Shown in pieces: positions 5,019-38,964 of a stretch of 64,000 nt of DNA; the stretch's first letter is position 1; every line of letters begins with the position of its first letter. The notes beneath the pieces were generated by a model. That model was given only the letters and a program-made list of their open reading frames with translations, was not told the origin of the DNA and ran no database searches. The DNA is from Eremomyces bilateralis CBS 781.70 (lineage: Eukaryota): NCBI GenBank assembly GCA_010015585.1, contig ML975154.1; one strand, given 5' to 3'. Both the position numbers and the translations under genes were made by a program.

Positions 5019-7565
5019 ATGGCGGCGTCGTTGGGCGTAATGGAGGAGGCGCCGGAGAGTCGTGTACTGATAATCATTACGGGCGGGACGATCTGTATGA
5101 AGCCGTCGGCGGACGGGCTGGTTCCGGTGAGTTTAAGATATTTTGTTCGAAGTCAGAAAGAGGTGTTGCTCTGGTTTTGGTGTGGAGAACGGTGGTCCGC
5201 GGGAAACGGAGGGCATGATATCTGGTTGTGTCTGAGGAGGGCACTGCACAGAAAGAGTTGGGACGGTTAGCGATTGATCGGTTCCATTATGTATGGATCA
5301 ATCGTCCCGAAAAAGATGGTGCTTCGATCAGGAGAATGAGGACGTTCTATACTCTGGGGATCAGTGATGGCCACTGACGATGGACGTGCTTATCCAGTCT
5401 CCTGGATTTCAGGTTTTCTGAATGCATGGAGAACATTAGAGGTGCTCTGATGCGGTCCATTCGGCGGAATACTCTGGATTCAGAAAACGGACCCGGGTAC
5501 CCCGAATCTATGTAGTGACCAATATCACTCCCCTTGGGTGCTTAGGAGTAGAGCAGAAAGAGCGCCATGGGGAAATGCTTCTTCTGCTTGTTAAAGTTTA
5601 TTTTCCGTTTCGAGTAAAGACTAACCACTAATAGGCAACTGGCTTCCTGAAAACCGGTCTCGCTCCCCAACCCTCATTTAACGACGGGTCTTACCCCGAA
5701 CCTTTGGAGATCGCAGTCGACGATGCAGGAACTCGAAAAGCAGTACAAAGTCTACGGACACCCATCAGCACATATCATCGACGAGTGCGTTACAGCGTCT
5801 ACGAATTTCCCACCCTCCTCGACAGTAGCTCGATCGACGCAACAGGATGGGACCTGATCGCGCGATCCATCCAACGAAATTACCAGCTCTTTGACGGCTT
5901 CGTCATCCTCCACGGCACCGACAGTCTAGCATACACCTGCTCCGCACTATCATTCATGCTCAACAACCTTGGGAAGCCCGTCATCCTCACCGGCTCCCAA
6001 GCCCCCATGCTCTCCCTCCAAACTGACGCGACCGACAACCTCCTTAACTCCCTCATCATCGCCGGACACTTCATGATCCCTGAGGTCTGTCTCTTCTTCA
6101 ACTTTGCTCTCTACCGTGGCAACCGCACCACTAAAACGTCCTCCGACTCCTTCGCCGCCTTCGCCTCCCCCAACCACCCCCCCCTGGCCACCGTCTCCGC
6201 CACCCGCACCCACGTCAACTGGGACCTCATCGTAAAACCCACTGCCCCCCTCCCCTTCCACATCTCCACCTCACTCTCCACCGCCCACGTCGCCTGCCTC
6301 CGCGTCTTCCCCGGAATCCTCCCCGAAATGCTCGACGCCGTCCTCCGCCTCCCTTCCCTCCAGGGCCTCATCCTCGAAACCTTCGGCGCGGGGAACACCC
6401 CGGGTGGACCCGACGGCACCCTCACCCGTGTGCTCGCCGCCGCCGTCCAGCGCGGCATTGTTATTGTTAACGTCACCCAATGCCTCTCCGGCTCCGTGTC
6501 CGCGCTCTACGCCTCCGGTACGGCGCTCGGGCGCGCAGGCATCGTGTTCGGACAAGACCTCACGACCGAAGCAGCATTAACCAAGCTATCGTACCTACTA
6601 GCACAGGAGGACGCGACGCCGGAGAGCGTAGCGCGAGAGATGGCGCGGGACCTATGTGGCGAGCTGACGGAGCGGGGGGAGGTAGCGTTTGCGCATCCGG
6701 GGCGGGAGAAGCGGCGGGTGAGCGGGGCGCTGACACCGGAGGTGGAGAGCTTGACGGCGCTGGGGTATCGGATCCAGGAGGGGGATCTAGACGGGGTGAA
6801 AGGGGTGATGAGGGAGGAGCGGGGGTGGTTGTTGGGGGAGGGGGATTATGCGGGGAATACGCCGATGGTGAGTACCGGTGTTGGTTCCTTGACCCGTGCG
6901 ATGGGGGCGGTGAAGTTGGAGGGGTTGCCGGATGTGGTGGAGGATGTGGAGGCGGAGGAGGTGGTGCCGGTGCGGTTGGTGGGTGGGATTGGACACATGC
7001 GTCGGTCGACGAGCCACAGTAGTGTCTCCAGCGGAGGTGGTCGGCGATTCTCGAACGTTTCTCGCTGAATCCCTTCATTTCATTTCTTCGGGCCCTCAAC
7101 CACGACGTTTTTGGAATATTCTATTTCGATGCTCCCGCATCCACCATACCTGTACTATACTAACCAACCCCTCTTTTCCAACAGCATATCGCCTCCCTCT
7201 CCCCACACCCCCAGATCCTCTCCTACCTCCTCGCCTCTGGCGGCTCCGTCCACCTCCGCAACCGCGCCGGTTTCACGCCGCTGTTCCTCGCCGCGCAAGC
7301 GGGGCTTCAGGAGAACGTGGCGTTGCTAAGGGAGGCAGGCGCGCATTTGCATGGGAGCGAGATCGGAAAGGCGAAAGCGTGCTTGAAGGAGTTGGGGAAG
7401 GGTCCAGAGGGAGAAAAGGAGTGGGAGAGGGAGGAGAGGGAGAGGAGGAGGGGGGTTTGGGAGGTGGTGGGCGCGGAGGGCGCGGAGGGGTATTTAGATC
7501 GGAGGGGGGGAAATGAACAGTTCACGAAACATGGAGATGGGTGTTTAGGGGTTAGCGGAGAATGA
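5019..7565 (+). CDS. Type I L-asparaginase / 60-kDa lysophospholipase with C-terminal ankyrin repeats
   Basis: Exons 5019-5126, 5635-6867, 7185-7565. Motifs IITGGTICM, DSS, HGTDSLAY, TGSQ, RGNR; ankyrin-like GNTPMHIA and GFTPLFLAA. Confidence 0.93.
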
Positions 7566-7821: not shown

Positions 7822-10800
7822 TCACCAACCTCCAACTTGCTCATCACCTACGAAATGAGAACCTCCTGCGCAACGATATCCGCCGCTCTGCTTGATCCAG
7901 TGATAGCCCATGGGGCAGAGGCCCATCGTCTCCAATTTCCTCAACATCTCCTTCTCCTTTTCTCTGCGCTGTTCCTCCTTCCGCAACCGCTTCAGGATTT
8001 TCTCTCGCGCCTCAGCTGTAGCTGTGCGCTTGGCCTTTTGCAGCTTCTGATACTCCTCCTCCCGTTCCTTCTCTGCTTGCTTGTCCTTCTGCAGCTGCTC
8101 CCATACCTCATCGCTGACACCCGCATCTCGCTGAACTTCACGATCATGGCGTACCAGCTCCTTTATTTTCTCGGCTGGGGCATGTGATTCCGGAGGCAGG
8201 AGTTTCGGGTCCGTATCCTCAGCCTGATTGGTTGTTGAGACTGCCGAAGCGTTTGGCTGCACATTTGAAAACGATGCAGATTCGGTCAGGAGATCGCTGG
8301 CTAACGGGGATGGATCGGCAAACTGGCTGCGGCCTTCACGCTCCTTGATCATCGAGTTGAGCTCCGCCTCTACAGACACTTCCGATACAACCAGCTGGAT
8401 CTTGGCGGCTGACTTCTGCGACCGCAGAGTTGTGTTGAAGACGTTCTTTGCCACGGTTTGCACGTCTCTCGCACTTGCCCAGTTAGCTTGCTTGGTGAGG
8501 TCTGAGAAACAGTGCTCCATCTTCTCCCGGAACTCGTCCGACGGCATCTCGAGCGAAGAAATGTCTAGGACGACGGCGGCGCTCTTCTTCAGCAGGATTG
8601 CCTTCTGCTTCTTGAAAAACTGCACCAGTAGCGCGACGCATTCGGGCGGCGTCAGGTTCCGGAAATCGACTACCTCGGAGAAGCGAGAGGTGAGACCGGG
8701 ATTCGTCGACATGAGCCGATTGATGTCATTTTCGTAACCGGCGAGGATAATGACTACCTTCTTCGCATACTGGGGTTTGGTCGTTGAATCGGTCAGCTCG
8801 TCTACCGCTTCTTGGGCGAAGGCCCCGCCCGCGAGGCGGTACGCTTCGTCGACGAACAGAACCCTACCCAGTGATTTGTCCAGAAGCTGCTTGACCTTGG
8901 GGCCGGTTTGGCCAACATATTGTCCGATGAGGTCCGTCGCTGAGCACTCGACCACGTCGGCGCTGGCAAGGAATCCCATGTCGTAGAACACTTTGCCCAT
9001 TTTCTTGGCTGTGGTCGTCTTTCCGGTTCCAGGCGGCCCGCGAAAGAGGAAGTTGAAGGGTATACCCTCTTTCATGTTTAGGCCCAGAGACCTTGTGACG
9101 CGGACCGTTTCCTGGTAGCCTTCCAGTCTGCGGACAATGTCCTCGCACCCGACTGTGCCTTCGAAGAGCTTCTTGGTGTTGGTTTCTGACCGTTCCGCGC
9201 GGTCAAAGTCCTTGTCAAAGTCAAGAGCCTCGAGGGTGCTCGCGGACTTTGTTTCGCCGCGGGAGAAGCGGGACTGATGCCGCCCCTTTGAAGCGTCGAG
9301 AAGGATGTCAATCTCGCCCGCGTTGCCGAAATTGGGCCGGTTACGCGCTCGATCGAGCATCTCCATTGCCACGTTTTTCGCTTGGTCGGTTGCATCGAAG
9401 CCCTGAGCTTTGAGCTTCAGGTCGAGAATCTTCCGAAGCTCAGCGTCGTTAAAATCATCAAAGATGAATGCCGATGCTAGTGGGAAACGCCTACTAAGCC
9501 CAGGATTGGCATTCTGGAACATCTTCTCCATTTGGTCTTTATAACCCAGAAGCAGAACGCATCTGTCGTCCCCTGGGACGCTTTGCACTTCGGCGACAAG
9601 AGTGTCGACGACGGTGGTCTTAAATGGATCAGATGTGGAACCGTGATCGCCCCCCGAGTGTAGGCCATAGGCTTCGTCAATGACCAACACTTTTCCCAGC
9701 GATGCAGCAAGGATTCCTTTTGTCTGTTTCTCAGATCCTCCGAGGATGGCGCCCACGAAATCGGACGGATTCTTTACGACGACTGTAATGTGTTAGCCTA
9801 GGAAACAAGATGCGCTTTCGTGACCCAAAGCAGAACCGCAGAGTGAGAGAGCAAAACCGACGTGGGCAACTTGCCTTCTCCTCTAGAGAGCAGTCCTAAG
9901 TCAACAAGAATCCCACCGTAAAGCTTTGCTACTGTGGTTTTGCCAGTTCCTGGGCTCCCCAGGAGCACTTTGTTGAGCGAATATTCGATCGGAGGCTGCT
10001 CCTCGAGCTCACGGACGTAGTTTTGCTGGATGGAGTCGACAAGAGCCGCTACTGCAGTTTTGACCGAGTCCAGCCCGATCATGGCTTTTAGCTTCTGCCA
10101 CGGCTTGGACTTTTCGAGCGCACTCGACGGTTCCGGGCCGATCAGGTCCTCCTTAGTCAGGAGAAAGTCATCGGGATGATTGCCTACGCGTTGTTCTCGA
10201 AAGAGGCGACCTGACTGTCGACGAGTGACTTGAGCCAGAGCGTTCTGGACGGCTCGCGCATTGCCAAATCCCGCCTTACCCCTTCCGCGGCCGATTCTCC
10301 GGGAGACGATGCGGCAGTATAGTCCCTCTATTCCGTCTTCGCATTTCATCCTGCCAGAGTATTTCTTATGGAGGCTCAGCTCAAAAATATCGAGGAGCTC
10401 CTCGTCAGTGTAGTCGGTGAACTTCATTTCAATGGGAAAGCGACTGGGCAGGCCGGGATTGTGGGCGAAGACGCTTTCCATCTCTTTGTTATAGCCTGCA
10501 AGAACGAAAACCACCTTTCCCACAAGGTTTTCCACTTCCGGAAGAAGGTAGTCCAGCACCGCACCCCCACCGCCACTGTTACCGGAGGTCAGCTGATACG
10601 CTTCGTCGACGAACAGCACTCCTCCGCCGTCATTTTGCAACTCGTCGATAAGCTTCTTGCACTCAGATACCCCCCCGTGGGCAAGAGCTGAGCCTGTAGT
10701 CTCTTTAAAACACTGGCCCGGGATGACGCCAATCGAGCACAGGAATTGCGAGTAGAGACGCGCAACAGTTGTTTTCCCTATCGGAATATCAGCAACGCCG

Positions 10801-13800
10801 TTTGAAGGGCTAGGAACGTACCTGTCCCTGGATTTCCCAGCATCACGCAGTTGAAGCGTTCGGACGCCAGAGATGCATTCTGCCTCAGCATCGTGTCGAC
10901 CTTAGTTTTGATGGCGAGGAACTCCTGCTTGACAACGTTCAGCCCAACCATGCCCATAAGGTCATCAAGAGCCTGGCTTGTAGCGCCCGACTGCTCCTTG
11001 AGCCACTTCCAGTCTTCCTCAGCAGAGTCAAGGGGATCTAATCGGCTTCTGTGCGTTTTAAGCTCCAGTCCTGCTGGATCACTCGCTTGCATGCCGCAGT
11101 TCTCCTTCGATATCCGCAACTTTGCTTTCTGTAGCCTCGCCGCCGTGGCTCGAAGCTCTGTGGCATCTCTCCGCTTCTGCGCCATATCCTTTTTCTCGTC
11201 CTCTTCCTCCTTCATGTACTGTATCTGTCGACGCTGATGGTCAATTTCGTCTTCGATCTGCACCAGCTCCTGAATATATGCCTCTTGGCGAGCAAGCCGC
11301 TTGCTCTCCAGCTCAAGATCTCGTTTTCGTTGCCGCTCTTTCTCCTGGTCTTCGCGACGACACTCGCGGCACCTTTCGTCCTTTTGGCTGCACCTGGTCC
11401 TCAGCTTGTGGTTCCTTTCGCAGGTTCGTTCTATGACGGCTGTACACTTTCTTTGGGAGTGGTCAGCGATCCTGTGGCATCTGAGCGGGCATTCGTGCAC
11501 CCCACATGACAGCTTTGCTCCACTATACCATATTAGCTATACACTGTGAGGCGAATTCAGAGAGAGGATGGACTCGCCAAGGTTCAAAGCAGCCGCCGTC
11601 GGGGCAGTGCTGCTCGAAATCGAGAGGCATCTGCAGGATGGCCTCCCTCTCCGGGTGCCGGACGCAGTGCACCGGAAGCCCATCGTACAGGTGCCCACCC
11701 TCTTTCAGCAAATTGAAAAATGGAATCCACGCGTCTTTGCCTCTTCTAGCGCTCATGAACGTGTTCATATTCCCAATCATAATGATACAGCAGCGAGCTC
11801 GAGACAGCAGCACGTTGAGTCTTTCGGGCGCCGACATGAAGCCAATATCTCCGCTAGAGTTGCTTCTAGTTAGGCTCGCGACAATGATGTCACTCTCCTC
11901 ACCCTGGTAGTTGTCTAGAATGAATTAGAAGCGAAGAAGCGAATTGTAACAATGCTTACCGATGGTGGATAGCCGAAGGGGCTGCTTGTCGACCTTTGAT
12001 GCCGCTTGCGTCATCAGACCCGCCCGGATCAGATCGTGGGCGTCAAGATCGTTGAGTATGGGGTTGTTTTCTTCGACGAGCTTATCTCTCAAAAGCCGCA
12101 GCTGGCCGAGATACGGCGTCAAGAGAGCTATCCTGTCCGTCGTGTAGCCCTGCTGGCCCAAGTACGCGACGACCTTGAGCACCATGTCGGCCTCGAAGAC
12201 GTTTTGCTTGCTCGAGACCACAGACGGGTCTCTGCGATCGACCAGCTCGTCGACTCCGACTTCCAGATTTTCGTGGTGCACGAAGATTACTCGGTTGCGA
12301 ATCCCGTCGATGGATGGGCGATCAGCGGTCTTTGGGTCATCTAGTAAGTCGGGATACGTGAGTGCGCGAGGGAATGCCGAAATAGTCGGATGCATGCGGT
12401 GCTGCTTGCGTAGTGTGGTGTGCGGGTGACCCTGCAGTATCAGTCTCTCGAACAGCGACCTGTTCAGGTCGTAACCAAGGCCCTTTTCCACGGACAGCTC
12501 GTAATTGTTGATCTTTGGGCGGAGCTGCTTGTGGTCTCCAATCAGCACTAACTGCTTCACTGTCGGAGCGAGCGCTGTGAGGATGTGACACTCAAGAATC
12601 TCGCCGGCTTCCTCGACCAACACCATATCCGGCTTTGCAGCGCGGATAAGCTTGTTGTACATGGCGGCAGCAGTGGTAGTGCACGCGATGACCCTTTTCG
12701 AGTTGAGAACCTGGACCTTGTGCTCGTTGAAGAGCTCGCTCAATCTTTCTTGGTTGCGGTCGAGCCTCTGAACGATGATCTGGACGGACTCGGCGCGCTC
12801 TGAAATCATCGCCTTAGTCCATTTTGATTGCAGGTTCTGCCGTTCGGCGGGAGCAATGGTCCAAATCGTTGTGTCGGTCACTCGTTCTCCTAGAATTCCA
12901 GCGTCTAGACCTTTGATCCAGCGGCTATACAGGTAGTCCGGTCCGATTTCTCTTCCCCTCCTTCCCACCCTCTTCCACTGGGTACTTTCCGCTGGAAGCG
13001 TAAAGGTTTCGTGGAAGCGTTCAAAGTCTTCGGAAAACTCCAGGTACTCCATGACGCCGGAAAAAGAAATTTGAAATTGCTGGTAATTATCCCAGGCCTG
13101 TGCGAGCGCTCCCTGTATGAGGCGCCGTTCGGTCTTCAACTCATTGATGACAGCCCACGAACTTTGAGACGGCCTATGCCGCCCCTTTTGGTTTGTCAAG
13201 AGAAGAGGAGCCGTTCTAGTAGTATGCTTCGAACCGAGTCGAACCATGGCCTCGTCGGGGATCCCAACGTCCTGAAGCTCCTCAAGGAACTGGTCAAGGG
13301 CATGGTTAGTATAGCTGATGACCATGAATTTCTGATCCGTGTATTTGAAGAGGTACTTCATGATTTGCGACCCTATGAAGGATTTTCCGGTGCCGGGCGG
13401 ACCTTGAATAATCGACACTGGCGTCGACAAAGCGTTGAGAAAGGAACTGCACTGTGAGTGATCCATAGTTGTTGTGCTACCGATTCTGATAATCTTGTCG
13501 TCGGAAAATTCGACAGCACGCAGCTTAGAGACAAGGGCCTGTAACTTAGGGCTGAATTCGAACTCGAAGTCTTTAGACGTAGGGTCGAGGAGCCGTTCCT
13601 CAAGAGGAAGATTGCTGATGTCCTTGATTCCCTCCAGTACTGGTTGGTAAGCGAAGACGGGGGTACCAACAACAACGAACTGAAGATCTTCAAATGATTT
13701 GAGGGCCACCAGCGATTTTTCCAGCGCTCGGCTATCCGTGAACTGCAGCTGGACGACCGGAGGAGAGCGTACGAGCGAAGCGATGTTCCGGTCCACGAAT

Positions 13801-14864
13801 GCGAAGCCGTAAATGACCGGTCCCCGACACAGCGCACCGAACGCCTGGTGCTTGAGAAAGTTCTTGTTGCCGTCCAAAAATCGTTCCCGAGCGGAGGGCT
13901 CCATCTTCTTTAGCGACTCGAGGCCGCTGAAACATTTCAGAGACAACGAGCACCTTTTTGCTCTGGCTTCGTCTCCAGGGTCAAGGTTCACCGGAACCAG
14001 CTTCCCGAGTCGATGGGCGCTCAGTTTTCCTTTCCCCTTTCCGGTTGCGCTCTGTAAATCCTCTCGGAGCTCGGCCAGCATGTCTTCTCGAAGGAGACGG
14101 AACTGATTGTCAAGATGCACCCCGGCTCGCTCTGCGGGCTCGGAATCAAAAGCCTCGTTTACGAGGCGATAAAACGGCTTCGTCGTCGAAAGAAATTCGT
14201 CACTGGTCGGGAAGATATCGATGCGTCGAAAGTCGGCAAAGTCGTTATCGTGGCGTCCTCCTGGGGACTCCGCCGAGGCGGCCAAGGCTGCTGGAACGGA
14301 CCGCAATTGCACGGCCTTTTGGATCTTGTATCCGAACTCGCGGGTCTCCTGTGACGCCGTCTCCAGTAAGCGTCCGTTCTTGATGACTGCCTGGACATCA
14401 TTGAGCAGGTCGATTTCGAGCTTCGCGGGAAACAAGACAACCTCGTGGACCAGCCACGCAAACGGTCGAAGGCTATCCTCCGAGAGCTGGTGGTTCAGGA
14501 ACAGGCCAACTAGCGCGTTCCAGACGGTCGGTGGATGAACGACGGCGATCAGAACCTGTAGGAGAAACTGTCCATCCGCCAAAAGCTTCACTTCCGGATC
14601 GGAGAAGTAGTTCAGGAGGGGAAGCGTGTGAGTCGTTATAAATTTGAGGTTTATGTCGGCTCGCACGGAGTTTCCGATAGCTTCCATTCCTGAAGGGCTC
14701 GATACTAATAGCTCGACGCAGACTCTTGGAGGATTTTTACACGGAACGGCTTCGAGAAACAGCCTTGCGTTTGCAGGCGTGTTTATGGTCCGCCGACCGT
14801 GGATCACGTCGTGGAAGAGGCTTAGCAGCTTTCGAACGCGAGTAGGTTCTTCGAGAGTAGCCAT
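7822..14864 (-). CDS. ZNFX1/Upf1-like SF1 helicase + NFX1-like Cys/His region + coiled coil + three CbbX/SpoVK-type AAA+ ATPase domains (~2268 aa)
   Basis: Exons 14864-11960, 11914-11578, 11522-10822, 10777-9875, 9782-7822 (6807 nt, in frame). ZNFX1-type GGRHDNDFADFRRIDIFPTSDE and FRLLREDM. Helicase QGPPGTGKS, YTNHALDQ, EEAGE, LIGDHKQLRP, SLFERL, QHRMHP, DNYQGEE, RLNVLLSRAR. AAA Walker A GNPGTGKT, GSPGTGKT, GPPGTGKT, each with a DEAY Walker B and NPGLxxRF. Confidence 0.92.
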
Positions 14865-15225
14865 TCTTCGTAAGCAATTCGTCGTCGATTGGAAGACGAT
14901 TCGTCGTCGAAATCCGAAGCAGGATCTGAGCGATATTTGTACTCTGCCTTTCTGGATTGATAGCAGAAGGTAGAGCCGTAGAGGTGAAGGGGGCGCGGCA
15001 AAGGTGACCCAGGCCAGTGGATATGGAACTGCAGTGTAACACAAGATGTACTGCCATTCGCACAGAACCTGGAAAGACGCAGCAGCCGTTGACCGGTCAG
15101 AATAATGCCAACAACGCGGCAGCAAACGAACGCAAAGGATGTAAGGTATAACTCTTGACTGTTAGCCTGATGAAGCCCAGAGGAGGATCCAAACTTTCTT
15201 TCAATGTTCCATAGCCACGATCATC

Positions 15226-16573
15226 ATGCTAGGCCAGTACAGAAGAGGACCAGGCGGGAGGAACTGGCGTACATCGGCGCCGAAAAAGGTGGAAACTCCA
15301 TCTCCGCCTTATGGGACGCTGTTGAAGTCCATAGAAGTGAAAGATCTGGATGGGGAGTCGACATCTTTCAGTCAAACGGCTACCATCACAGATAGCCGTC
15401 TCGTTGCCTCTTACAACTGGGTCGACGGGAATACAGTAGAACCAACCATTCTCGTGCCAGGTAGGAACAGAGTTTATCACTGTGGAACAGACTTACAAGG
15501 CTACAGGGAAGCCACCGCGGTGGACACCACTCACGGAGGCCATGAATCTCGCTCAGGACTCCGGGGAGTATTTTCGAGACAAGAACGCTGCTCGGTACCC
15601 CAAGCACCCGATGGAGCCGGCAGTTCTGGCCCTCCTCGCGACCGACCCGGCAGTTCGAACTAAGCTCGACGTTATCGGGTGCGGAAGCACGATCGGGAAC
15701 CTGCTGCGATTCGTTCGTGGGAAAGACAAGCCGTTTCGTATGCTCGTCGAGTTGGTTCAGGACACCGTCTTCTTCATCCGGAGGGAAAACTCCCCAACCG
15801 AGCTCCTTCATGACGTCTACGGATACGGTCACACGTTTCCGGAAGTGTATACGAGCTGGGAGCCCGACGTCAAGGGATCTGCATCGCACCAGAGGCTGGT
15901 TCGGTACTCGTTCGGAGGGCTTCAGCTTATCGTGAGGTTTGAGGGAGATGGATACCTTGCAAAGTCCCCATCGTCGTCCGAGGCATCCCAAGACGCCAGC
16001 GTGGACGACCTCATCTCGGGTCTTCCGGTGGCCGCAAACATCTCAGAGAAGGTATCATCGGGAACCAAGTTGAAGGTCCAGCGCGCGGGCGAAGTGGTAG
16101 ACCAGGACTTCATCTTCGACCTCAAGACTCGAAGTGTTAATAAAAAGAACGACCAAGACACATTGGGAGAAGAGCTTCCTCGGATGTGGGTTTCGCAGAT
16201 TCCCAACTTCATCCTCGCCTATCACACTCGTGGAGTCTTTCATGACATCGAAGTCAGCGATGTGCATCAGGACGTCGAGGAATGGGAGAAGACTCATAAC
16301 CAGCAACTGTCCAAGCTGGCGGCTTTGATCCACCGAATCATCGTCGAAGTTCGCGGACGACCAGACGGAAAACTGGAGCTATGCAATGACGGCTCCGGCG
16401 AGTTGGAATTTCGAGAACAGCGATCAGAAGCCGGCGACGCGTTGTCGGTCGAAACCAAAGCTCTGTGGGTGAAGGACGTTGATTCTGACGAACCTGATAT
16501 CGTTTGGGCGGCAGATGATGACTACACTGCGTGTACAGAGTCCTGCGGGTACTGCGGCCAATGCACCTATTGA
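15226..16573 (+). CDS. Uncharacterised protein (~433 aa), putative Rai1/DXO-like PD-(D/E)xK nuclease
   Basis: Exons 15226-15460 and 15507-16573 (GTAGGA...CTACAG intron). Ordered motifs GSTIGNLLRF, YGYGHTFPE, RFEGDGY, FDLKTRS, WVSQIPNFILAYH parallel the DXO/Rai1 motifs. C-terminal CxxxCxxCxxC. The gene call is solid; the function is inferred. Confidence 0.7.
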
Positions 16574-17710
16574 ACGGCTATAAGTAATAATATTTTTCGC
16601 CTTGTACGCCGATTACCGTAGCTTCCAATAAGAACACGAAGTAGAATCATGGACAATGGCATCTCGGTATTATCTCGTGCTTACTCTTTACTCCTTGAGG
16701 GGAGTTGCAACTCCGGCCCAGAGATCGTATATAACCTGGCTAGGAGAGGAAGCATGCCGCAAACACCGGCCACAGCTCTTAGATGCCAGGACCTAGGAAG
16801 ATATCATGATAGTATAGTATAGTCAGCGCGGCAGCGTATCTCATAATAGAGGTATTTGAATGAACGTGTTCGTTCTGGGGGTTCCCAAACAGCAACATAA
16901 GATGGAGACATTCCTGTGGATCAGCTTCAACTTTTGCGTACTCTCCACGACTGACTTATGGGCAAGGAACGAAGGACTCCCATCGAAACAGTACCAAAAA
17001 ATTACCGAAAACATCGCCGGATCCAGAACGATGGTTAGGGGGTGGATAATCAAGTAAAAGACTCAGAAGTAAGAAGTGTGAAAGTGAAATCCGCATGTAG
17101 CACCTCATTAGTAGCCGGCACTAACAAGGCGACTAAGCAGCCCGGATAGCGACCCCGACAATCGAGACTCGGGGCCCTCGGGGCCCTCCCGTGCAGCCAG
17201 TAGGATTGGCGTTGATACGCATCCAGAACTAAACTCGAACTAAACCATCGAACTCCAAACATGGAAAATTAGAACCCCATCAGCTAGTTAGTTTCCCCTA
17301 AAAATTAGCCACACCCCACAATCGAACAAATCCACCGCCGATACACGTGTAACGCGCAGCGGTAGCCCACTCTGCCCCTCCGAAGTCGAAGCCGGCGTGT
17401 CGAGCGGAGGTGGAGTGACGTCTCCCGGTCACGGCGACGCTTGGGGGGAGCTGGGAGTGGGGACCTGATTAGGCGATTTCGGGCGAATGGGGGAGGATAT
17501 ATAAAGATCATGCGATGTCCGGAACTTGGTTGCGCGTAGCGAATTTGGTGAATTAACTTAATTATTGATGTCTAAGAATCGAAATTTAATATACGAAGCA
17601 CTATCCACAGTGAGTACGGGTCGTTTTGAAGTTTATGGAGGGAATTGGCGGTATATCCGACTAACTGGTTACAGCTCCCAGTATCTTCAACAACCTAAGT
17701 ACCTATCACC

Positions 17711-18650
17711 ATGTCAAAACTCCTTGAAGGCAAGGTAAGCCACCATTCCATCCCATCCCATCCCATCCCATCCATCCCCCTTACGAACCCCAACCCCCCT
17801 CCCCTTTCCCTCCTCCTCCCATCACCGATCACCTAACCCTCCCTAGGTCGCCATCATCACCGGCTCCGGCGGCGGCCTCGGCGCCACCATCGCCACCACC
17901 TTCCTCACTCACGGCGCCTCCGTCGTTCTCTCTGACATCTCCACCACGCGCCTCTCCGACAAGCTCGCGTCCCTCTCCGCCCTCGGGCCCGTCCACGCGG
18001 TCACCACAGACATCACCTCCGAAGCTTCCGTGGCAGCGCTCTTCTCGGCCGCGAAAGAGAAGTTCGGACGGGTGGATATCCTCGTGAATAACGCGGGGGT
18101 GATGGATAAGTTCGACCCGGTGGCGGAGCTGGAGAAGGAGTTGTGGGATCGGGTGATCGGGGCGAATTTGACGGGGACGTTCCTGTGTAGTCGTGCGGCG
18201 GTGCGGGAGATGTTAGGAGATGTCGACGCAGAGGAGGCGGTGGTGGAGGAGACGAGGGGGGAGGGGATGCCGGCGCCGGCGCCGCCGACACGGGGGGTGA
18301 TTTTGAATATCGGGTCGGTGGCGGGAGTGCGGGGCGGGAGCGGGGGAGCGGCGTATACGGCGAGTAAGCATGGAGTGATTGGGTTGACGAAGAATACGGC
18401 GGCGGCGTACGCGAGGAGGGGGATTCGGTGTAATGCGATTTTGCCCGGGGGGATGGCAACGAATATCAGCGATTCACTGGCGAAGGGGATTAATACGGAG
18501 GGGTTTGGACTGGTGCAGAAGACAATGGCGGTGGGGGCACCGTTGTGTGAGTTAGGGGATGTGGCAGAGTTATGTGCATGGTTGTGTGGTGGGAGTCGGG
18601 TGGTAAATGGAGCGGTGGTGGCAGCGGATGGGGGGTGGACGGCAGCGTAG
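17711..18650 (+). CDS. Short-chain dehydrogenase/reductase
   Basis: Exons 17711-17734 and 17847-18650. TGSGGGLG, DILVNNAG, NIGSVAG, YTASK and PGG motifs. Confidence 0.95.
17743..17778 (+). repeat. (CCATC)n microsatellite in the SDR intron
   Basis: ccattccatcccatcccatcccatcccatccatccc. Confidence 0.8.
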
Positions 18651-18853: not shown

Positions 18854-20765
18854 TCAAGAAGATTCATTCGTAGCGTCAAAGACCGGTGCGAACTCAAAGC
18901 TCTGCCTCTTCGATCCGCTAGTCGCTCTACAGATGAATTAGTACTGATGGTTGGACGAATAACAGATGAGACAACATACTTTCGGATGACCCTCTCCATC
19001 GCATCCAATCCTCGTGCCAACACATCCATCTTCGGCCCATACGACAGCCGAACATAGTGGTGACACGTACTATCAAAGAGATCTCGTCGCTTCGCCGGAT
19101 TCAGATCGAAGAAAATGCCCGGGACAACGATGACCTTCGCCTCGAGGCACGCTTCGAAGAAGTTGAGGCCGTCGTTGATGGCTTCCGGCAGCTCGGACAA
19201 GTTCAACCAGATGTAGAACGTACTGGAGACGGTCAGTACTTCCCAACGGAAAAAAGGAGGGTCGGGTACCTGTTCGGGACGTAGGCGAGATCGAATCCCA
19301 TGTTGCGCAACCGCATCACCACGTAGTCCCGCTTATCCCGGAAATGCTTCTGCAACGCCACCATCTCGCACCGCACCCGATCCGGCTCCAACATCGCAAC
19401 CGCTGCCTCCTGAAACGGAACATTCGTCCCGCCGTCCAGATACGACCCACACGATCCGATTGCCTTAATGAACTCCTTCGGCCCCAGAATCCACGCCACC
19501 CGCCACCCCGGCAGCCGAAACCGCTTCGTCAGACCATCGATAATCAACACATCGTCGGCATTCACATCCACGATGTTGTCGGCCGCCGAGATGACAGTGC
19601 CGTCGCAACCAGAGGTGTAGTTATACCCGCCGTAGAACTCATCCATGATCAATGTCGCCCGCCCGCGGCAGATCCCCTGGATCTCCTGCAGCTCGTCGGA
19701 CGGCATGACCATGCCGGTGGGATTGCGCGGATTGGACGTGAGGATGACAGAGGTGCCGCGGGCGATCTCGTGGGCGATGGTCTCGGCACTGATGTGATAG
19801 CGGTCGTCCTCGGCCAGCGGGATGGGGAGGGCGGAGAAGTTGCGGAAGAGGGAGAGCATCTCGTTGTAGGCGGTATAGTCCGGGATGAAGAAGCCTAGGT
19901 AGGCGTTGCCGAGGACGGCGGCGATGCGGATGAGGCCGGCGCGTCCGCCGGGGACGATGGCGACGTTCTCCCAGGTGTATTGGCTGGGTTTGCCTTGGCG
20001 ATGGTGGGCATTGTAGAGATGAGCGACGGCGTCGCGGAGGGGTCTGATGCCGGCGGTGGGGCCATATTCGCGGCCGCTGACGCTGATGGGGATGGATTCG
20101 GGACGCTTGAAGCAGCCTTCGATATCGTCTTCCACTTCGGGAGCGCCTTGACCGAGATTTGCCCAGGCATGCGGTTCGTCGAGGTAGCCGTGGTCGTAGG
20201 CTCTTTCGCTCGTCCAGACCACGCCGGTCGAGGCACGAGACGGATCGAGGCCGGCATGGTGTTTGGGGGATTCGTGATGTTCTCTGAAAAGACGATGGAC
20301 GATTGAGGATTGTTCTAGTGAATGGTAAGTTGTCTGACTGGGGTTTAGATTGTAGATGTTAATATCCGGAAGGCTTTAGAATCGAGTAGTTCAATTGATG
20401 TTACAGGGGGTGTAGCGGGCAAGAATGGATTACAACGTGGATATAGATTGCAGTTCATGGGTTCCCGTACACCGAATGTAGGTATTACTGCTCATGGGTA
20501 GCTATCTCGCAGAAGGCCAAGGCGAGCGATGGGGAGCCGGGCTGGCATGGCTGGGCCTTGGCAATGCTTCGCTTTCGATCCTCGAGGGTTTTGATATGTA
20601 TTGTAGCAAGATGTTCGCGTGGATGGACTAAAAGAAAAAGAACTGCGATAGGAAGAAGCTGACGGTCAAAGTCGTATTCACACGCTTACCATTGTTAGAG
20701 TTTGTCCTTGCTAGTGACATGCGCCGCAAGGTAGAGGACATGGACTCTGTAGCGGTATGAGACAT
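18854..20765 (-). CDS. PLP-dependent class I/II aminotransferase (5' exon structure uncertain)
   Basis: NLGQGAPE, YGPTAGIRPLR, SNPRNPTG, IMDEFY, DGLTKRFRLPGWR (PLP Lys). Introns near 19223-19269 and 18927-18979. Likely ATG at 20765 (MSHTATESMSSTLRRMS). Confidence 0.88.
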
Positions 20766-32100: not shown

Positions 32101-32641
32101 ACCGAAGGATTCGGTCAACGGCCATACAGCATCATCCACCGATACCCCCGCTGCCGTCGAGCCGACACAGCCGGCGCCTCCAACCACGACCCAAGAACCA
32201 CAACCGATCCAACAACCGCAACCGGCCCAACAACCACAACCGGCCCAACAACCACAACCGACCCAACAACCAGCCCAAGCTCGGCAAAGCTTCGGCACCG
32301 GCCCCCAAGCCCTCCGCGGCCTCGCCTCCCAACTTCCCCGCGCAGGTGGCGCCGCCACTCGCGGGATTCCTCGCCCGGTGGGACGCGGCGGGATACCTAT
32401 GCCGGGGCAAGGCGGAGGACAACAAGCAGGGCAGGGCCGCGGAGGTGGACGGGGAAGAGGCGGACGTGCGTCGATGGGGCAGGGACAAGGAGGGCAAGGA
32501 CAGGGACAACAGGGAGGGAGTCCGAGGGGAGGGATGAATGCGGCAGCGAAGCAGTTTGTGCCGGGGATGAAGCGGCCGAGGGAGAGTGAGGGGGAGGGGG
32601 GAGGGATGAAGAGGCCTAGGGGAGGGGCAGGTGGGCAGTAA
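26193..32641 (+). CDS. MLP1: Nuclear basket nucleoporin Tpr/Mlp1 (long coiled coil)
   Basis: Exons 26193-26484, 26544-30937, 30986-32641. >2000-aa coiled coil with ISQRLVLFRNTAELQEQNEKLL, YEDELLKHAEAA, EVIKYLRREKEIVD, ELNLFRESNASLR, W..R.QQIL.KY; RGG/NLS tail. Confidence 0.93.
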
Positions 32642-37408: not shown

Positions 37409-38711
37409 TCAATGCACCATCTGTGAAGCATAGAACTCCTGCCTTAAATTAGCACCGAAAATCCCCACTCTCACCCGCCAAACTCACCGGATACTGATTC
37501 TGAATCATCGTCGTAATCCGCTCCACCTCCTCCGCCTGCCCTCTTAGATTCCCATCCCACGTCCGCATCTCCCTCCCCACCAGCAAATCTCCCCGCACTA
37601 CCCCCCGCTCCCCCGTGCTCTCCCCCTCGAAGTAAATCAGCCCGTCCACCTGGTCGATGTACCCCGCCAACCGCCCCTCCTCGATCATCTGCGCGGCGTA
37701 ACGCTCGGCTTTCTCCTTGTCGATCCCCAGGAGCCCGCCGAGCTCCTCCACGCGGATGTTGTTGTACAGGCGCGATGCGGCGACCATGTTGTGCTCGAGG
37801 ACTGCTTTTTGGAGGACGGTGAACCCGTCGGACGTCTTGGCGAGTTGGTGCTCGCTGAGCTTCTTCTCGAACGCCGCGATGTCGGTGGGGGAGAGGAGCC
37901 GGTCGAGGAAGATTCGTTCTAGGATGCTGTATTCCTCGACGTGCGTCGCTCGCTCGTCCTTGTAGAGTCGCGCGAGCATCTTCGCTCGCTGCGGGCCGGC
38001 GGGAGCGAGAACCGCGCAGGTGATGGACGCCGACAGCGCTTGAAGCCGTTCGTCTTCGTCGACTTCCCGCTGCAGGCTGAGGATGTGGTAGGCGGAGCTC
38101 GCTTCCAAGAACGATCGCTGCGAGTCCAGGATGCGCGCCCGCGAGAGCTCGTATTGCAACTTCGTGGTCGCATCGGTGACGTCGAAGATGATGTTCTTGA
38201 CACGGTTGAGATACCCCGTTGCGCTTATTGGGTCCTCCTCTTCTAGATAGCAGCGCACAATGCGCACCCAGATCTTGGCCCGCTCGTCGGCGGTGAAGCT
38301 CCGCTGCGAGGAATCGAGGCTGATCGACTGCAGGACGCGGGCGGAGTTGCGGAAGTCCTCCTCGTCTTCGTGGGCATCGGCAAGGATCTCGCGGATGGCG
38401 CGGTCTTGCTCTTCAAATGAGACGACTTTGTGGTGGAGGGTGGCGAGGAGGGATTGGCAGACTTCGATGCGCAGGGAGAGGGAGGGGATGGCGCGGAGAC
38501 GGTCGACAAGGAGGTGGAGGAGGGGGCGGGCGGAGACGATGCCGAGAGCGTCGCTGGTGACGACGCTCGCGAAGGTTTGGAGGCCTGCGAGGACGTCGCG
38601 GTCGTTGGAAGATTGGAGGATCAAGTCAAGGAGGGAAGGCGTCTTTTGGAGTCGTTCGCTCTGGGGGGCGTGTTCGAGTTGTTGACATATTTGTTCGACC
38701 TGGGAGGCCAT
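37409..38711 (-). CDS. CSN4: COP9 signalosome subunit 4 (PCI domain)
   Basis: Exons 38711-37488 and 37438-37409. VSFEEQ, ARILDSQRSFLEA, CAVLAPAGPQR, LYKDER, EHNMVAASRLYNNI, IDQVDGLIYF. Confidence 0.96.
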
Positions 38712-38964
38712 GGTGAAGGTGAGGGACTTCACTAGTGGGATTAGGGCATATATTTGGGGTGAGTTTAGTCGAGGCAACCAGCTATGTAGAGGAATTGTAG
38801 GATTATGAGAATTTGACTGTACAATGTGAGAGGAGAGTGCATATACAGTAAGTTTGATGTGCTTGAATTGATCTTGAACTGGCCCAACTGGATACCTTGA
38901 GCTTCAGTGATCCCCACAGTGACAGGGGTTGACTATTGCGGTCTTGACGTCTTGGGTTTATGCT

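What the first reader, a model, noticed from the sequence alone, without database searches (positions are those of the whole stretch)
7822..16573. Candidate fungal RNA-defence module: ZNFX1-like helicase-3xAAA+ giant paired head-to-head with a Rai1/DXO-like nuclease
Seen: two divergent genes with only ~360 bp between their start codons (14864 and 15226). One encodes a ~2268-aa SF1 helicase / Cys-His finger / coiled-coil / triple AAA+ protein, the other a 433-aa protein with DXO-like motif order. Established: ZNFX1-clade helicases (mammalian ZNFX1, C. elegans ZNFX-1, S. pombe Hrr1, Neurospora SAD-3) act in dsRNA sensing or RNA silencing; tandem-AAA+ giants such as RNF213 are immune sensors; Rai1/DXO enzymes remove caps or 5' groups and degrade RNA. 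Inference: this is a co-transcribed sensor/motor plus nuclease effector pair, organised like a two-gene defence system, possibly acting against mycoviral or aberrantly capped RNA. I know of no characterised system with this pairing.
Basis: partly seen in the sequence, partly recalled or inferred. Interest (0 to 1): 0.85.

Follow-up and report, generated by a model that had tools for sequence, protein, structure and literature searches.

The report
Conserved fungal helicase–nuclease gene pair
Two back-to-back fungal genes, a giant ZNFX1-like RNA helicase with three AAA+ motors and a DXO/Rai1-shaped RNA-end nuclease, stay paired across many distantly related moulds, which suggests an undescribed RNA surveillance or antiviral module.

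Summary
A 2268-aa gene on the minus strand (ATG 14864) and a 433-aa gene on the plus strand (ATG 15226) diverge from a 361-nt spacer in Eremomyces bilateralis. An RNA contig confirms all four introns of the giant.

The giant has an ARM-like N-terminus, a ZNFX1-type SF1 helicase, a Cys/His segment, a coiled coil and three CbbX-type AAA+ units with intact Walker motifs.

The partner is misnamed "geranylgeranyl pyrophosphate synthetase" in databases and hits no Pfam family. Its model nevertheless has a full-length Rai1/DXO fold (Z 26.4). It keeps conserved R / GxGHxFxE / ExD / (D/E)xK / Q motifs in the Rai1/DXO order.

The pairing is conserved. In 38 of 41 informative metagenomic clusters the giant lies divergently upstream of the partner, while flanking genes are not conserved. 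Ten named genomes carry consecutive locus tags. The giant's gene tree does not follow the species tree.

So the fold, the linkage and the non-housekeeping pattern are supported. "Co-transcribed" is not, and RNA hints at an antisense transcript through the nuclease gene. Antiviral function, co-induction and physical binding remain untested. I found no published description of the pairing.

The parts
7822..14864 (-). Giant gene, 5 exons (14864-11960, 11914-11578, 11522-10822, 10777-9875, 9782-7822 including the stop), 2268 aa. Introns are 45, 55, 44 and 92 nt; two have GC donors (GCGAGT, GCAAGT).
   Evidence: model. (an RNA contig skips exactly these four introns). (99% identical to the deposited model, which wrongly removes 12 aa).
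13467..14864 (-). N-terminal region, aa 1-466. Helical ARM-like repeats (about aa 1-190) are followed by a helix/beta module carrying the invariant GGRHDND...P.DE...H.DNQFRLLRE motifs.
   Evidence: AF2, pLDDT 86.6. (best Foldseek hit is the ZNFX1 helicase core 9q9z, E 7.6e-6, then Aquarius/SETX and designed ARM repeats). (invariant columns).
11700..13466 (-). SF1 (Upf1-like, ZNFX1-type) helicase core, about aa 467-1040, crossing intron 1. Walker A is GPPGTGKS; motif II is VEEAGE.
   Evidence: AAA_11 1.1e-25, AAA_12 1.5e-19 and 1.9e-14. (ZNFX1 9q9z_A, 3.1e-67). (invariant G488-K494, E751, E752, Q780 in P0121 numbering).
11390..11700 (-). Cys/His-rich segment, about aa 1040-1125 (approximate), crossing intron 2. 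It is a candidate NFX1-type zinc-finger arm, much shorter than in human ZNFX1.
   Evidence: near-invariant C/H columns 1040-1123. (the phmmer stretch against ZNFX1 runs to query residue 1121). (no Pfam zinc-finger hit at E<=10).
10895..11390 (-). Charged helical (coiled-coil-like) linker, about aa 1125-1290 (approximate).
   Evidence: Sequence. No Pfam hit.
8330..10895 (-). Three tandem CbbX/SpoVK/EccA-type AAA+ units, about aa 1290-2100. Their P-loops are GNPGTGKT, GSPGTGKT and GPPGTGKT, each followed by a hhhhDEAY Walker B.
   Evidence: PF00004 plus AAA_lid_6. (CbbX 3syk 2.9e-31, EccA1 9lur 2.7e-28). (Walker A/B columns invariant or >=90% in 35 homologues).
7825..8330 (-). C-terminal tail: low-complexity sequence, a charged helix, and the conserved Cys/His motif CPxGYxW..GGYRCxGGxH (7849-7920).
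   Evidence: C2226 and G2229 invariant; W2232, C2241, H2246 >=90%, P0121 numbering. No PDB, Pfam or Atlas match.
14865..15225 (.). 361-nt spacer between the two start codons, a presumed shared divergent promoter region.
   Evidence: In related loci the distance between the first aligned residues is 476-1441 nt; the 35 distances entered by hand have median 624.
15226..16573 (+). Partner gene, exons 15226-15460 and 15507-16573 (46-nt intron), 433 aa. It has a Rai1/DXO-fold protein with R170, G184-x-G-H-x-F-x-E191, E224-x-D226, D283-x-K285 and Q309, and a C-terminal Cys motif C-x4-C-x2-C-x2-C (16535-16567).
   Evidence: (100% identical to P0001). (pLDDT 89.5). (Rai1/DXO, Z up to 26.4). (motif conservation in 60 homologues).
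16567..16684 (-). Minus-strand GT-AG intron (donor GTAAGC) overlapping the partner's stop codon. It is evidence of a minus-strand transcript entering the partner gene antisense.
   Evidence: joint 16564->16683, ends CT..AC on +, cut +2; spliced depth 17.5 against unspliced 17.6. (sequence).

Best explanation
This is a conserved, functionally coupled two-gene module of filamentous ascomycetes that acts on RNA.

The giant is a ZNFX1-type 5'-3' SF1 RNA helicase (ARM-like N-terminus, Upf1-like core, short Cys/His arm). Its C-terminal half is three CbbX/SpoVK-type AAA+ ATPase units, all with intact nucleotide sites. Inference: two chains would supply six AAA+ units, enough for a ring that could oligomerise on, or remodel, RNA-protein targets.

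The partner is a divergent but probably catalytically active member of the Rai1/DXO fold. Enzymes of this fold strip abnormal 5' ends (incomplete or NAD caps, triphosphates) and can degrade RNA 5'-3'.

Proposed mechanism, all inferred. The helicase/AAA+ protein binds and unwinds aberrant or non-self RNA such as mycoviral, transposon-derived or aberrantly capped RNA. The DXO-like enzyme then opens the 5' end so that the RNA is destroyed or fed into silencing. This would parallel ZNFX1 in animals and EOL-1/DXO downstream of DRH-1 in C. elegans.

Shown here: the gene models, the domain and fold identities, motif conservation, conserved divergent linkage, and a non-species-like gene tree for the giant. 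Not shown: the RNA substrate, the antiviral role, co-induction and physical contact.
For: Gene models.

Giant: Pfam AAA_11/AAA_12 plus PF00004/AAA_lid_6. The best solved relative is ZNFX1 (3.1e-67), well ahead of UPF1 (3.2e-32); the AAA+ units are closest to CbbX and EccA1. The N-terminal model matches the ZNFX1 core best. Walker A/B columns of the helicase and of all three AAA+ units are invariant or >=90% in 35 homologues.

Partner: the AF2 model has pLDDT 89.5. All 36 Foldseek PDB rows listed (ranks 1-50) are Rai1/DXO/Dxo1/eIF3d entries. VIA-align gives Z 26.4 (rmsd 3.4 A, 309 residues) to S. cerevisiae Rai1, Z 24-26 to plant DXO1 and mouse DXO, Z 17 to eIF3d, and then drops to Z 5. Motif conservation in 60 homologues: R170 60/60, E/D191 54/60, E224 52/60, D226 60/60, D/E283 59/60, K285 58/60, Q309 56/60. 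The ESM Atlas puts nematode RAI1-bearing clusters structurally nearest after the partner's own family (TM 0.73/0.78).

Linkage: of 53 loci with more than 1500 nt upstream, 49 have the giant divergently upstream. After collapsing at 95% identity this is 38 of 41 informative clusters. Locus tags are consecutive in 10 named genomes. No downstream ORF cluster recurs in more than 2 of the 36 representative loci examined, 27 of which have at least 3 kb downstream.

Non-vertical pattern: Eremomyces, a Dothideomycete, nests among Sordariomycetes; Venturia groups with Leotiomycetes; Hypocreales are split; Sordaria has two copies. The odd Tolypocladium+Sordariales and Monosporascus+Anthostomella groupings recur in the partner tree.

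Analogy: EOL-1/DXO is induced by Orsay virus through DRH-1 and is needed for enhanced RNAi (PMC7735679, passages). ZNFX1 is an antiviral RNA helicase (PMC13710534, abstract and introduction).
Against: No functional or expression-response datum supports defence.

Neither exon of the window's partner gives a Pfam hit at E<=0.01. None of the 60 aligned family members hits RAI1 (PF08652) even at E<=10. The family profile finds no Rai1/DXO chain by sequence in the PDB. Equivalence of the motifs to DXO's catalytic residues therefore rests on their order, their conservation and their place on the predicted secondary structure, not on a residue-level superposition.

Three informative clusters (L002, L022/23/24, L039) have a partner homologue with no giant upstream. 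In Diaporthe batatas the two locus tags are 56 apart.

Linkage was tested only from the partner's side, and only in the 80 best of 137 confirmed loci. The family is much larger (1811 representatives at E<=1e-3), so unlinked paralogues may be common.

The only RNA data set shows the partner's intron unspliced in the dominant contig. The partner's functional mRNA may therefore be rare under that condition.

The trees are FastTree or quick trees of hand-picked rows. The position of Eremomyces in the partner tree is unresolved.

The neighbours in the window are ordinary housekeeping genes.
Confidence: 0.55

Rival explanations
1. Housekeeping RNA quality control. The pair is a constitutive RNA-processing or decay factor (for example in nuclear or ribosomal RNA maturation, as with Rat1-Rai1 or Dxo1) with no role in defence.
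For: Canonical Rai1/DXO proteins are quality-control enzymes, and the fold match is to them. The locus lies among ordinary housekeeping genes. The giant is expressed and correctly spliced in an ordinary RNA sample. The pair is widespread in Pezizomycotina.
Against: The giant's gene tree does not follow the species tree, and paralogues exist. The partner family is very large and diverse (1811 representatives), unlike the 'typically one member' stated for DXO/Rai1 in the abstract start of PMC11571810 (search listing only). The nearest structural neighbours outside the family are the expanded nematode RAI1 clusters, not the fungal Rai1 orthologues.
Confidence: 0.2
2. The partner is a non-catalytic 5'-end (cap) reader, like eIF3d. 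It would use the DXO fold only to bind RNA 5' ends and to recruit or gate the helicase/AAA+ machine.
For: eIF3d shares the fold (Z about 17; Atlas row). No sequence profile links the partner to catalytic Rai1.
Against: The PD-(D/E)xK-type residues are strongly conserved: D226 60/60, K285 58/60, D/E283 59/60, E224 52/60, R170 60/60. Structural similarity is clearly higher to the enzymes (Z 24-26) than to eIF3d (Z 17).
Confidence: 0.12
3. Linkage without joint function. The two genes merely share a bidirectional promoter that is hard to break apart, and they act in unrelated processes.
For: Divergent gene pairs with short spacers are common in compact fungal genomes. No interaction test could be run.
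Against: The arrangement survives in 38 of 41 informative clusters at 37-50% partner identity, while no flanking gene is conserved. Both trees share unusual groupings. Both proteins belong to RNA-handling families.
Confidence: 0.08

Closest known systems
Human ZNFX1 (and, from recall, C. elegans ZNFX-1, S. pombe Hrr1, N. crassa SAD-3)
   Same: Both have an ARM-like N-terminus, a Upf1-like SF1 helicase core with ZNFX1-type motifs, and a Cys/His segment directly after the core. ZNFX1 is the best solved relative by sequence and by fold of the N-terminal region.
   Different: Human ZNFX1 has a 12-finger arm and a C-terminal split-site E3 module (RZ and Z-ring) and no AAA+ units (PMC13710534 introduction). 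The fungal giant has a short Cys/His segment, a coiled coil and three CbbX-type AAA+ units. Its different C-terminal Cys/His motif matched no family. No DXO-like neighbour is described for ZNFX1.
Rai1 / DXO / Dxo1 5'-end RNA quality-control nucleases (Pfam PF08652)
   Same: The fold matches over the full length (Z 24-26 over about 300 residues). The motifs R, GxxxE, ExD, (D/E)xK and Q occur in the same order and are conserved.
   Different: Sequence identity is 8-16%, and there is no hit to PF08652 or to any Rai1/DXO chain by sequence. The partner has an extra N-terminal strand-helix unit and an acidic tail ending in a Cys motif. It is paired with a helicase/AAA+ giant instead of Rat1/Xrn2. 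The family is very large in Pezizomycotina.
C. elegans EOL-1 and the expanded nematode DXO paralogues
   Same: Both are expanded, divergent DXO-fold families. Nematode RAI1-bearing clusters are the structurally nearest non-family neighbours (TM 0.73/0.78). EOL-1 is virus-induced through the RIG-I-like helicase DRH-1, and six paralogues sit next to the RdRP gene rrf-2 (PMC7735679 passages). That is a helicase-plus-DXO antiviral logic with genomic clustering.
   Different: In nematodes the helicase (DRH-1, SF2) is not the neighbour and acts through transcription. The similarity rests on the Atlas alone, which gives no alignment or E-value. No nematode sequence was compared here.
CbbX (red-type Rubisco activase) / EccA1 / SpoVK AAA+ ATPases
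   Same: These are the best solved relatives of each AAA+ unit. PF00004 plus AAA_lid_6 are present.
   Different: Those proteins are single- or double-unit proteins that act on protein substrates. Here three units are fused in tandem behind an RNA helicase.
RNF213 (giant AAA+ E3 immune sensor)
   Same: Both are giant, multi-AAA+ proteins, and RNF213 shares an evolutionary link with ZNFX1 through the RZ finger (recalled).
   Different: The AAA+ units here are CbbX-like, and there are three, not six dynein-like ones. No RING or RZ family was detected. The resemblance is conceptual only.

Membership tests
Rai1/DXO fold family (partner) | Full-length Rai1/DXO three-dimensional fold | tested here: met
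   AF2 model pLDDT 89.5. All 36 Foldseek rows listed (ranks 1-50) are Rai1/DXO/Dxo1/eIF3d. VIA-align gives Z 26.4, rmsd 3.4 A, 309 aligned residues to 9dso_B; the next unrelated fold scores Z 5.
Rai1/DXO fold family (partner) | Match to the Pfam RAI1 model PF08652, or to Rai1/DXO chains by sequence | tested here: not met
   No Pfam hit at E<=0.01 for either exon. None of the 60 family members hits PF08652 at E<=10. phmmer and hmmsearch against the PDB find no Rai1/DXO chain at E<=10. The Atlas names a newer family, PF29557, which the local library does not hold.
Rai1/DXO fold family (partner) | Conserved PD-(D/E)xK-type catalytic signature (ExD ... (D/E)xK) with the upstream Arg, the GxxxE motif and the downstream Gln, in DXO order (motif definitions recalled) | tested here: inconclusive
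   Present and conserved: R170 60/60, E/D191 54/60, E224 52/60, D226 60/60, D/E283 59/60, K285 58/60, Q309 56/60. They lie on strand 217-224, strand 281-288 and the region around helix 297-308 of the model. No residue-level superposition on DXO could be made.
Rai1/DXO fold family (partner) | Decapping, pyrophosphohydrolase, deNADding or 5'-3' exonuclease activity | not testable with these tools
   Needs biochemistry.
ZNFX1-clade SF1 helicases (giant) | Upf1-like SF1 core that is closer to ZNFX1 than to UPF1, Aquarius or SEN1 | tested here: met
   AAA_11/AAA_12. ZNFX1 9q9z_A scores 229.8 bits against UPF1 113.7, Aquarius 82 and SEN1 58.
ZNFX1-clade SF1 helicases (giant) | N-terminal ARM domain preceding the core | tested here: met
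   Model pLDDT 86.6 with helical repeats over aa 1-190. Foldseek's best hit is ZNFX1 9q9z at E 7.6e-6; designed armadillo repeats follow at E 0.03-0.1.
ZNFX1-clade SF1 helicases (giant) | NFX1-type zinc-finger arm after the core | tested here: inconclusive
   Near-invariant Cys/His columns at 1040-1123, and the phmmer stretch to ZNFX1 extends to residue 1121. No Pfam zinc-finger model hits at E<=10, and the segment is far shorter than the 12 fingers of human ZNFX1.
ZNFX1-clade SF1 helicases (giant) | C-terminal E3 module (RZ and Z-ring) | tested here: inconclusive
   A conserved C-terminal Cys/His motif exists but matches nothing in the PDB, Pfam or the Atlas. No ZNFX1 C-terminal sequence was available for comparison.
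CbbX/SpoVK/EccA-type AAA+ (giant, C-terminal half) | PF00004 core plus AAA_lid_6 with Walker A/B intact, in three copies | tested here: met
   (PF00004 and AAA_lid_6 in exons 4 and 5, with the third P-loop split across intron 3). (CbbX 2.9e-31, EccA1 2.7e-28). (GxxGxGKT and DE columns invariant or >=90% for all three units).
RNF213-like AAA+ E3 sensors | Six dynein/midasin-like AAA units plus RING and RZ finger (definition recalled) | tested here: not met
   Only three AAA+ units are present, and they are closest to CbbX/EccA. No RING or RZ family is detected.
Two-gene defence-type module | Conserved physical linkage of the two families across genomes, independent of general synteny | tested here: met
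   38 of 41 informative clusters. 10 genomes with consecutive tags. Flanks are not conserved. Tested only from the partner's side.
Two-gene defence-type module | Patchy or non-vertical distribution | tested here: inconclusive
   The gene tree of 31 hand-picked giants conflicts with class- and order-level taxonomy. Two odd groupings recur in the partner tree. No genome-by-genome presence/absence survey was possible, because no fungal genomes are held.
Two-gene defence-type module | Induction by, or protection against, virus or foreign RNA | not testable with these tools
   Only one RNA data set, with no stated condition, was available. The virus-induced N. crassa genes listed in PMC7648066 could not be matched to this pair.

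The most novel reading that the evidence does not exclude
This is a eukaryotic, operon-like innate immune cassette that moves and turns over among filamentous fungi as a unit. A ZNFX1-derived RNA sensor has acquired a ring-forming triple AAA+ motor, and it licenses a dedicated DXO-type nuclease to strip and destroy the 5' ends of viral or transposon RNA, or in an abortive mode of host RNA too. The nuclease gene is held in check by an antisense transcript that reads from beyond its 3' end into the sensor gene. On this reading the nematode EOL-1 expansion and this fungal family are two arms of one ancient antiviral DXO lineage, distinct from housekeeping Rai1/DXO.
Probability: 0.17. Interest if true: 0.9.

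Novelty: new variant of a known kind. Interest (0 to 1): 0.74.

Why it matters
Fungal antiviral immunity beyond RNAi is poorly mapped, and conserved multi-gene defence cassettes are a bacterial hallmark that is rarely documented in eukaryotes.

Here a large family annotated as "geranylgeranyl pyrophosphate synthetase" (1811 cluster representatives) is reassigned to the Rai1/DXO fold and shown to be tied to a ZNFX1-like helicase/AAA+ giant across classes of Pezizomycotina. This corrects a widespread misannotation.

It also gives ZNFX1 biology a candidate nuclease arm that genetics can reach. Orthologues of the giant exist in Neurospora crassa, Podospora anserina and Cryphonectria parasitica, and whether the partner lies beside them there was not checked.

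Finally, it suggests that virus-linked DXO paralogues (EOL-1 in nematodes) may have a fungal counterpart.

Tried and rejected
- **Complex prediction.** Complex prediction (giant aa 1-466 with the partner) was never accepted. The queue was full, and the tool was declared unavailable. No binding test exists.
- **Own genome.** It is not held, so paralogues and a canonical Rai1 in E. bilateralis could not be sought. The genome search could not reach the metagenome records, and PF29557 is not in the local Pfam.
- **Earlier findings of this scan.** Nothing was returned by place, by sequence (twice) or by words.
- **RNA runs.** Only one run holds the stretch. Its kind was a guess, and no run on record as RNA was listed. 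The contigs give no strand, no expression level and no growth condition.
- **Fusion search.** Looking for longer proteins containing the partner found only 5 singletons with unrelated extra domains, probably merged gene models. There is no recurrent fusion.
- **C-terminal Cys/His motif of the giant.** No PDB, Pfam or Atlas match. The idea that it is an RZ finger rests on my recall of that motif and is left open.
- **Shared promoter motif.** A conserved block (core GCTCAGCCTTG) occurs in 8-9 related loci but not in the window's spacer, so it is not a general feature.
- **Literature searches that found nothing relevant.** ZNFX1+fungi+AAA+helicase. NFX1-type zinc finger protein + mycovirus. Rai1/DXO/fungi/ZNFX1 (none of the 14 listed papers holds ZNFX1). 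Accession and locus identifiers of the N. crassa, P. anserina and M. poae giants. NCU04472/NCU07036/NCU00947 (only PMC7648066). ZNFX + EOL-1. ZNFX1 + DXO (one unrelated Aplysia paper). GGPP synthetase + mycovirus gave nothing usable.
- **Supplements.** Those of PMC7648066, which list virus-induced genes, were not opened and may bear on whether the N. crassa orthologues are induced.
- **Co-phylogeny.** A formal test was not done. Only two shared odd groupings were noted.

Full report
**1. The observation**

Stop-to-stop frames and splice-site reading give two gene models. The minus-strand gene has five exons (14864-11960, 11914-11578, 11522-10822, 10777-9875, 9782-7822) and encodes 2268 aa. The plus-strand gene has two exons (15226-15460, 15507-16573) and encodes 433 aa. 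The two start codons are 361 nt apart.

The partner translation is identical to a deposited protein of Eremomyces bilateralis CBS 781.70, a Dothideomycete of uncertain placement. The giant is 99% identical to a deposited 2256-aa model.

One public run holds the stretch. When it is laid on the window, a contig of 8622 nt skips exactly the four predicted introns of the giant. Two of them have GC donors (their ends read CT..GC on the plus strand). The giant is therefore expressed and the model is right.

The deposited model differs only in removing 12 residues (my 791-802) as a 36-nt intron. The RNA contig does not skip these residues and homologues keep them.

**2. The giant**

- Pfam finds AAA_11 and AAA_12 (SF1 helicase) in exons 1-2, and PF00004 plus AAA_lid_6 in exons 4-5. 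A third P-loop is split across intron 3.
- Against solved structures the best relative is human ZNFX1 (9q9z_A, E 3.1e-67, 229.8 bits). UPF1 follows far behind (3.2e-32), then Aquarius, SETX and SEN1. The AAA+ units match CbbX (2.9e-31) and EccA1 (2.7e-28).
- I folded the first 466 residues with 28 homologues (pLDDT 86.6). The model has helical repeats followed by a helix/beta module. Its best Foldseek match is again the ZNFX1 core structure (E 7.6e-6), followed by Aquarius, SETX and designed armadillo repeats.
- In 35 aligned homologues the helicase Walker A, motif II and motif III are invariant or at least 90% conserved. So are the GxxGxGKT and DE motifs of all three AAA+ units. All four ATPase sites therefore look functional.
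- After the core comes a short Cys/His-rich segment (about aa 1040-1125). It lies within the phmmer stretch aligned to ZNFX1 but hits no Pfam zinc-finger model.
- The protein ends with a conserved motif, CPxGYxW..GGYRCxGGxH, that matches nothing in the PDB, Pfam or the Atlas.
- Human ZNFX1 is described as ARM + UPF1-like core + 12 zinc fingers + a C-terminal split-site E3 module (RZ and Z-ring). It ubiquitinates RNA (PMC13710534; I read the abstract, the introduction and passages).
- The fungal protein shares the N-terminal two-thirds of that plan. It has three CbbX-type AAA+ units where ZNFX1 has most of its finger arm.

**3. The partner**

Databases call it "geranylgeranyl pyrophosphate synthetase". 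Neither exon hits a Pfam family at E<=0.01. None of 60 family members hits RAI1 (PF08652), even at E<=10. Sequence searches of the PDB find no Rai1/DXO chain.

The family is large: 1811 representatives of 50% clusters at E<=1e-3, and 432 at E<=1e-30.

An AlphaFold2 model built on 60 sequences is confident (pLDDT 89.5, pTM 0.87).
- All 36 Foldseek PDB rows listed (ranks 1-50) are Rai1, DXO, Dxo1 or eIF3d (best E 1.6e-13).
- VIA-align gives Z 26.4 (rmsd 3.4 A over 309 residues) to S. cerevisiae Rai1, and Z 24-26 to other fungal Rai1, Arabidopsis DXO1 and mouse DXO.
- It gives Z 19.8 to Dxo1 and Z 17 to eIF3d.
- The score then falls to Z 5 for lambda exonuclease.
- The ESM Atlas independently lists, after the protein's own family, nematode clusters carrying RAI1 (TM 0.73/0.78 over 355 residues), then eIF3d, NARG2_C and EDRF1_N.

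The family keeps these residues, in order:

| Residue or motif | Conservation in 60 homologues |
|---|---|
| R170 | 60/60 |
| G184-x-G186-H187-x-F189-x-E/D191 | E/D191 54/60 |
| E224-x-D226 | 52/60 and 60/60 |
| D/E283-x-K285 | 59/60 and 58/60 |
| Q309 | 56/60 |

This is the order of the four Rai1/DXO motifs plus the downstream Gln as I recall them. The residues sit on the expected strands and helix of the model. I could not make a residue-level superposition, so catalytic equivalence is an inference.

The refutation condition "the partner does not fold as a PD-(D/E)xK nuclease" is not met.

**4. Linkage**

Named hits of the two searches carry consecutive locus tags in ten genomes:
- Monosporascus sp. 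MC13-8B
- M. ibericus
- Magnaporthiopsis poae
- Anthostomella pinea
- Diaporthe amygdali
- D. australafricana
- Apiospora marii
- Mycothermus thermophilus
- Remersonia thermophila
- Gnomoniopsis sp.

In Diaporthe batatas the tags are 56 apart.

For a test on DNA I fetched loci around partner relatives from metagenome contigs. Of 137 confirmed loci the best 80 were kept. I then searched them with both window proteins.
- Of 53 loci with more than 1500 nt upstream of the partner, 49 carry a giant homologue on the opposite strand directly upstream, with its N-terminus nearest. The first aligned residues are 476-1441 nt apart.
- Of the 27 loci with less upstream sequence, 6 still show the giant's N-terminus.
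- After collapsing loci whose partners are at least 95% identical there are 63 clusters. Of these, 41 are informative and 38 are linked.
- The exceptions are L002, L022/23/24 and L039.

As a control for general synteny I clustered ORFs of at least 120 aa downstream of the partner in 36 representative loci, 27 of which have at least 3 kb downstream. No cluster recurs in more than two loci. Only the pair is conserved.

Limits: the test runs from the partner to the giant only. It also covers only the closest 80 loci of a much larger family.

**5. Evolutionary pattern**

I built a FastTree tree of 31 hand-picked giants, rooted on the N-terminal half of a basidiomycete model. That model proved to be two tandem giants merged into one. 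The tree does not follow taxonomy:
- Eremomyces nests among Sordariomycetes (support 97).
- Venturia, also a Dothideomycete, groups with Leotiomycetes (100).
- Leotiomycetes fall in both main clades.
- Hypocreales are split.
- Sordaria has two copies.

A quick IQ-TREE of 22 partners reproduces two odd groupings: Tolypocladium+Sordariales (98) and Monosporascus+Anthostomella (96). It leaves Eremomyces unresolved.

This speaks against single-copy vertical inheritance and for co-inheritance of the pair. It does not separate transfer from ancient paralogy with loss. No genome-by-genome survey was possible.

**6. RNA observations that complicate "co-transcribed"**

The two genes are divergent, so one mRNA cannot encode both.

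The RNA contig that splices the giant correctly runs on unbroken through the 361-nt spacer and the whole partner gene. It does not skip the partner's 46-nt intron.

A further joint removes 16567-16684. Its ends are GT..AG on the minus strand, with a GTAAGC donor. It overlaps the partner's stop codon. The spliced and unspliced forms have similar depth (17.5 and 17.6), and cover continues beyond 16683 (depth 56.7).

The simplest reading is a minus-strand transcript that starts downstream of the partner, runs antisense through it and continues into the giant. Contigs carry no strand, and the growth condition is unknown, so this is a lead and not a result.

**7. Mechanism**

I commit to a coupled RNA-handling module. 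A ZNFX1-type helicase engages the RNA. Its triple AAA+ half probably dimerises into a six-unit ring and drives assembly or remodelling. The DXO-fold enzyme opens or degrades the 5' end.

The defence reading rests on analogy:
- ZNFX1 is an antiviral RNA helicase.
- EOL-1/DXO in C. elegans is induced by Orsay virus through the helicase DRH-1 and is needed for enhanced RNAi. Six DXO paralogues lie next to an RdRP gene (PMC7735679, passages).
- The roles of Hrr1, SAD-3 and ZNFX-1 in small-RNA pathways are recalled, not taken from a call.

I put 0.55 on a coupled RNA surveillance/defence module. Within that, roughly 0.35-0.4 is for a specifically antiviral or anti-transposon role. The rivals are housekeeping quality control (0.2), a non-catalytic 5'-end reader (0.12) and linkage without joint function (0.08).

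**8. Novelty**

Both parts belong to known kinds. Three things appear undescribed:
- the fusion of a ZNFX1-type helicase with three CbbX-type AAA+ units;
- the assignment of the "GGPP synthetase" family to the Rai1/DXO fold;
- their conserved divergent pairing.

Full-text searches found no paper that treats the pairing. The one paper that names both ZNFX1 and DXO is an unrelated Aplysia study.

Virus-induced N. crassa genes named in PMC7648066 (NCU04472 "RNA helicase", NCU07036, NCU00947; passage) could not be matched to this pair. I did not open that paper's supplements.

**9. Not done**

There was no genome-wide survey, no residue-level active-site superposition, no stranded RNA data and no functional test.

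Noticed in passing
window 15226-16800 (joint 16567-16684; partner intron 15461-15506): The RNA contig that splices the giant correctly runs unbroken through the spacer and the partner gene with the partner's intron unspliced. A minus-strand GT-AG intron overlaps the partner's stop codon. This suggests an antisense transcript, or a long leader of the giant, through the nuclease gene.
   Followed up: partly
window 11523-11577 and 9783-9874: Two of the giant's four introns use GC donors (GCGAGT, GCAAGT). Both are confirmed by the RNA contig.
   Followed up: yes
window about 12456-12491 (giant aa 791-802): The deposited gene model removes 12 conserved residues (SVEKGLGYDLNR) as a 36-nt intron. The RNA contig does not skip them and homologues keep them.
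   Followed up: yes
L021:9702-9822, L041:9704-9824, L056:9118-9238, L043:9791-9911, L036:4510-4630, L040:6483-6603, L065:9678-9798, L069:991-1111: A conserved non-coding block (core GCTCAGCCTTG, flanked by CAAAC..CGCCAC and AGGCAGCAT...ACTTGAAG) lies in the divergent spacer of a subset of related loci. It may be a shared regulatory element. It is absent from the window's own spacer.
   Followed up: partly
window 16535-16567 (partner) and 7849-7920 (giant): Both proteins end in small conserved Cys-rich motifs: partner C-x4-C-x2-C-x2-C after an acidic tail, giant CPxGYxW..GGYRCxGGxH. Neither has a family match. Whether they bind metal or each other is unknown.
   Followed up: partly
P0122 (Candolleomyces aberdarensis, 4701 aa): A basidiomycete 'protein' contains two helicase cores and six AAA+ units. 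It is two tandem giants merged into one model, so the giant also occurs, and is duplicated, in Agaricomycetes.
   Followed up: partly
cluster of P0161 (Pyricularia oryzae): Many isolates carry fragment models of the giant (157-1731 aa, for example neighbouring tags ..000352 and ..000354) beside full-length ones. This could be pseudogenisation polymorphism or an annotation artefact.
   Followed up: no
P0386 (Colletotrichum karsti, 834 aa): A long model containing the partner domain is named '3'-5' exonuclease' by its source, yet has no Pfam hit. PMC7648066 lists a virus-induced '3'-5' exonuclease' (NCU07036) and an 'RNA helicase' (NCU04472) in N. crassa. No relation to this pair was established.
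   Followed up: no
window 5635-7065, 17711-18650, 19236-20375, 26480-32638, 37452-38903, 55929-57182: The neighbours are ordinary genes: asparaginase, short-chain dehydrogenase, aminotransferase, an Mlp1/TPR-type nuclear basket protein (a 2053-aa open frame), a PCI-domain proteasome/CSN subunit and tRNA-guanine transglycosylase.
   Followed up: no
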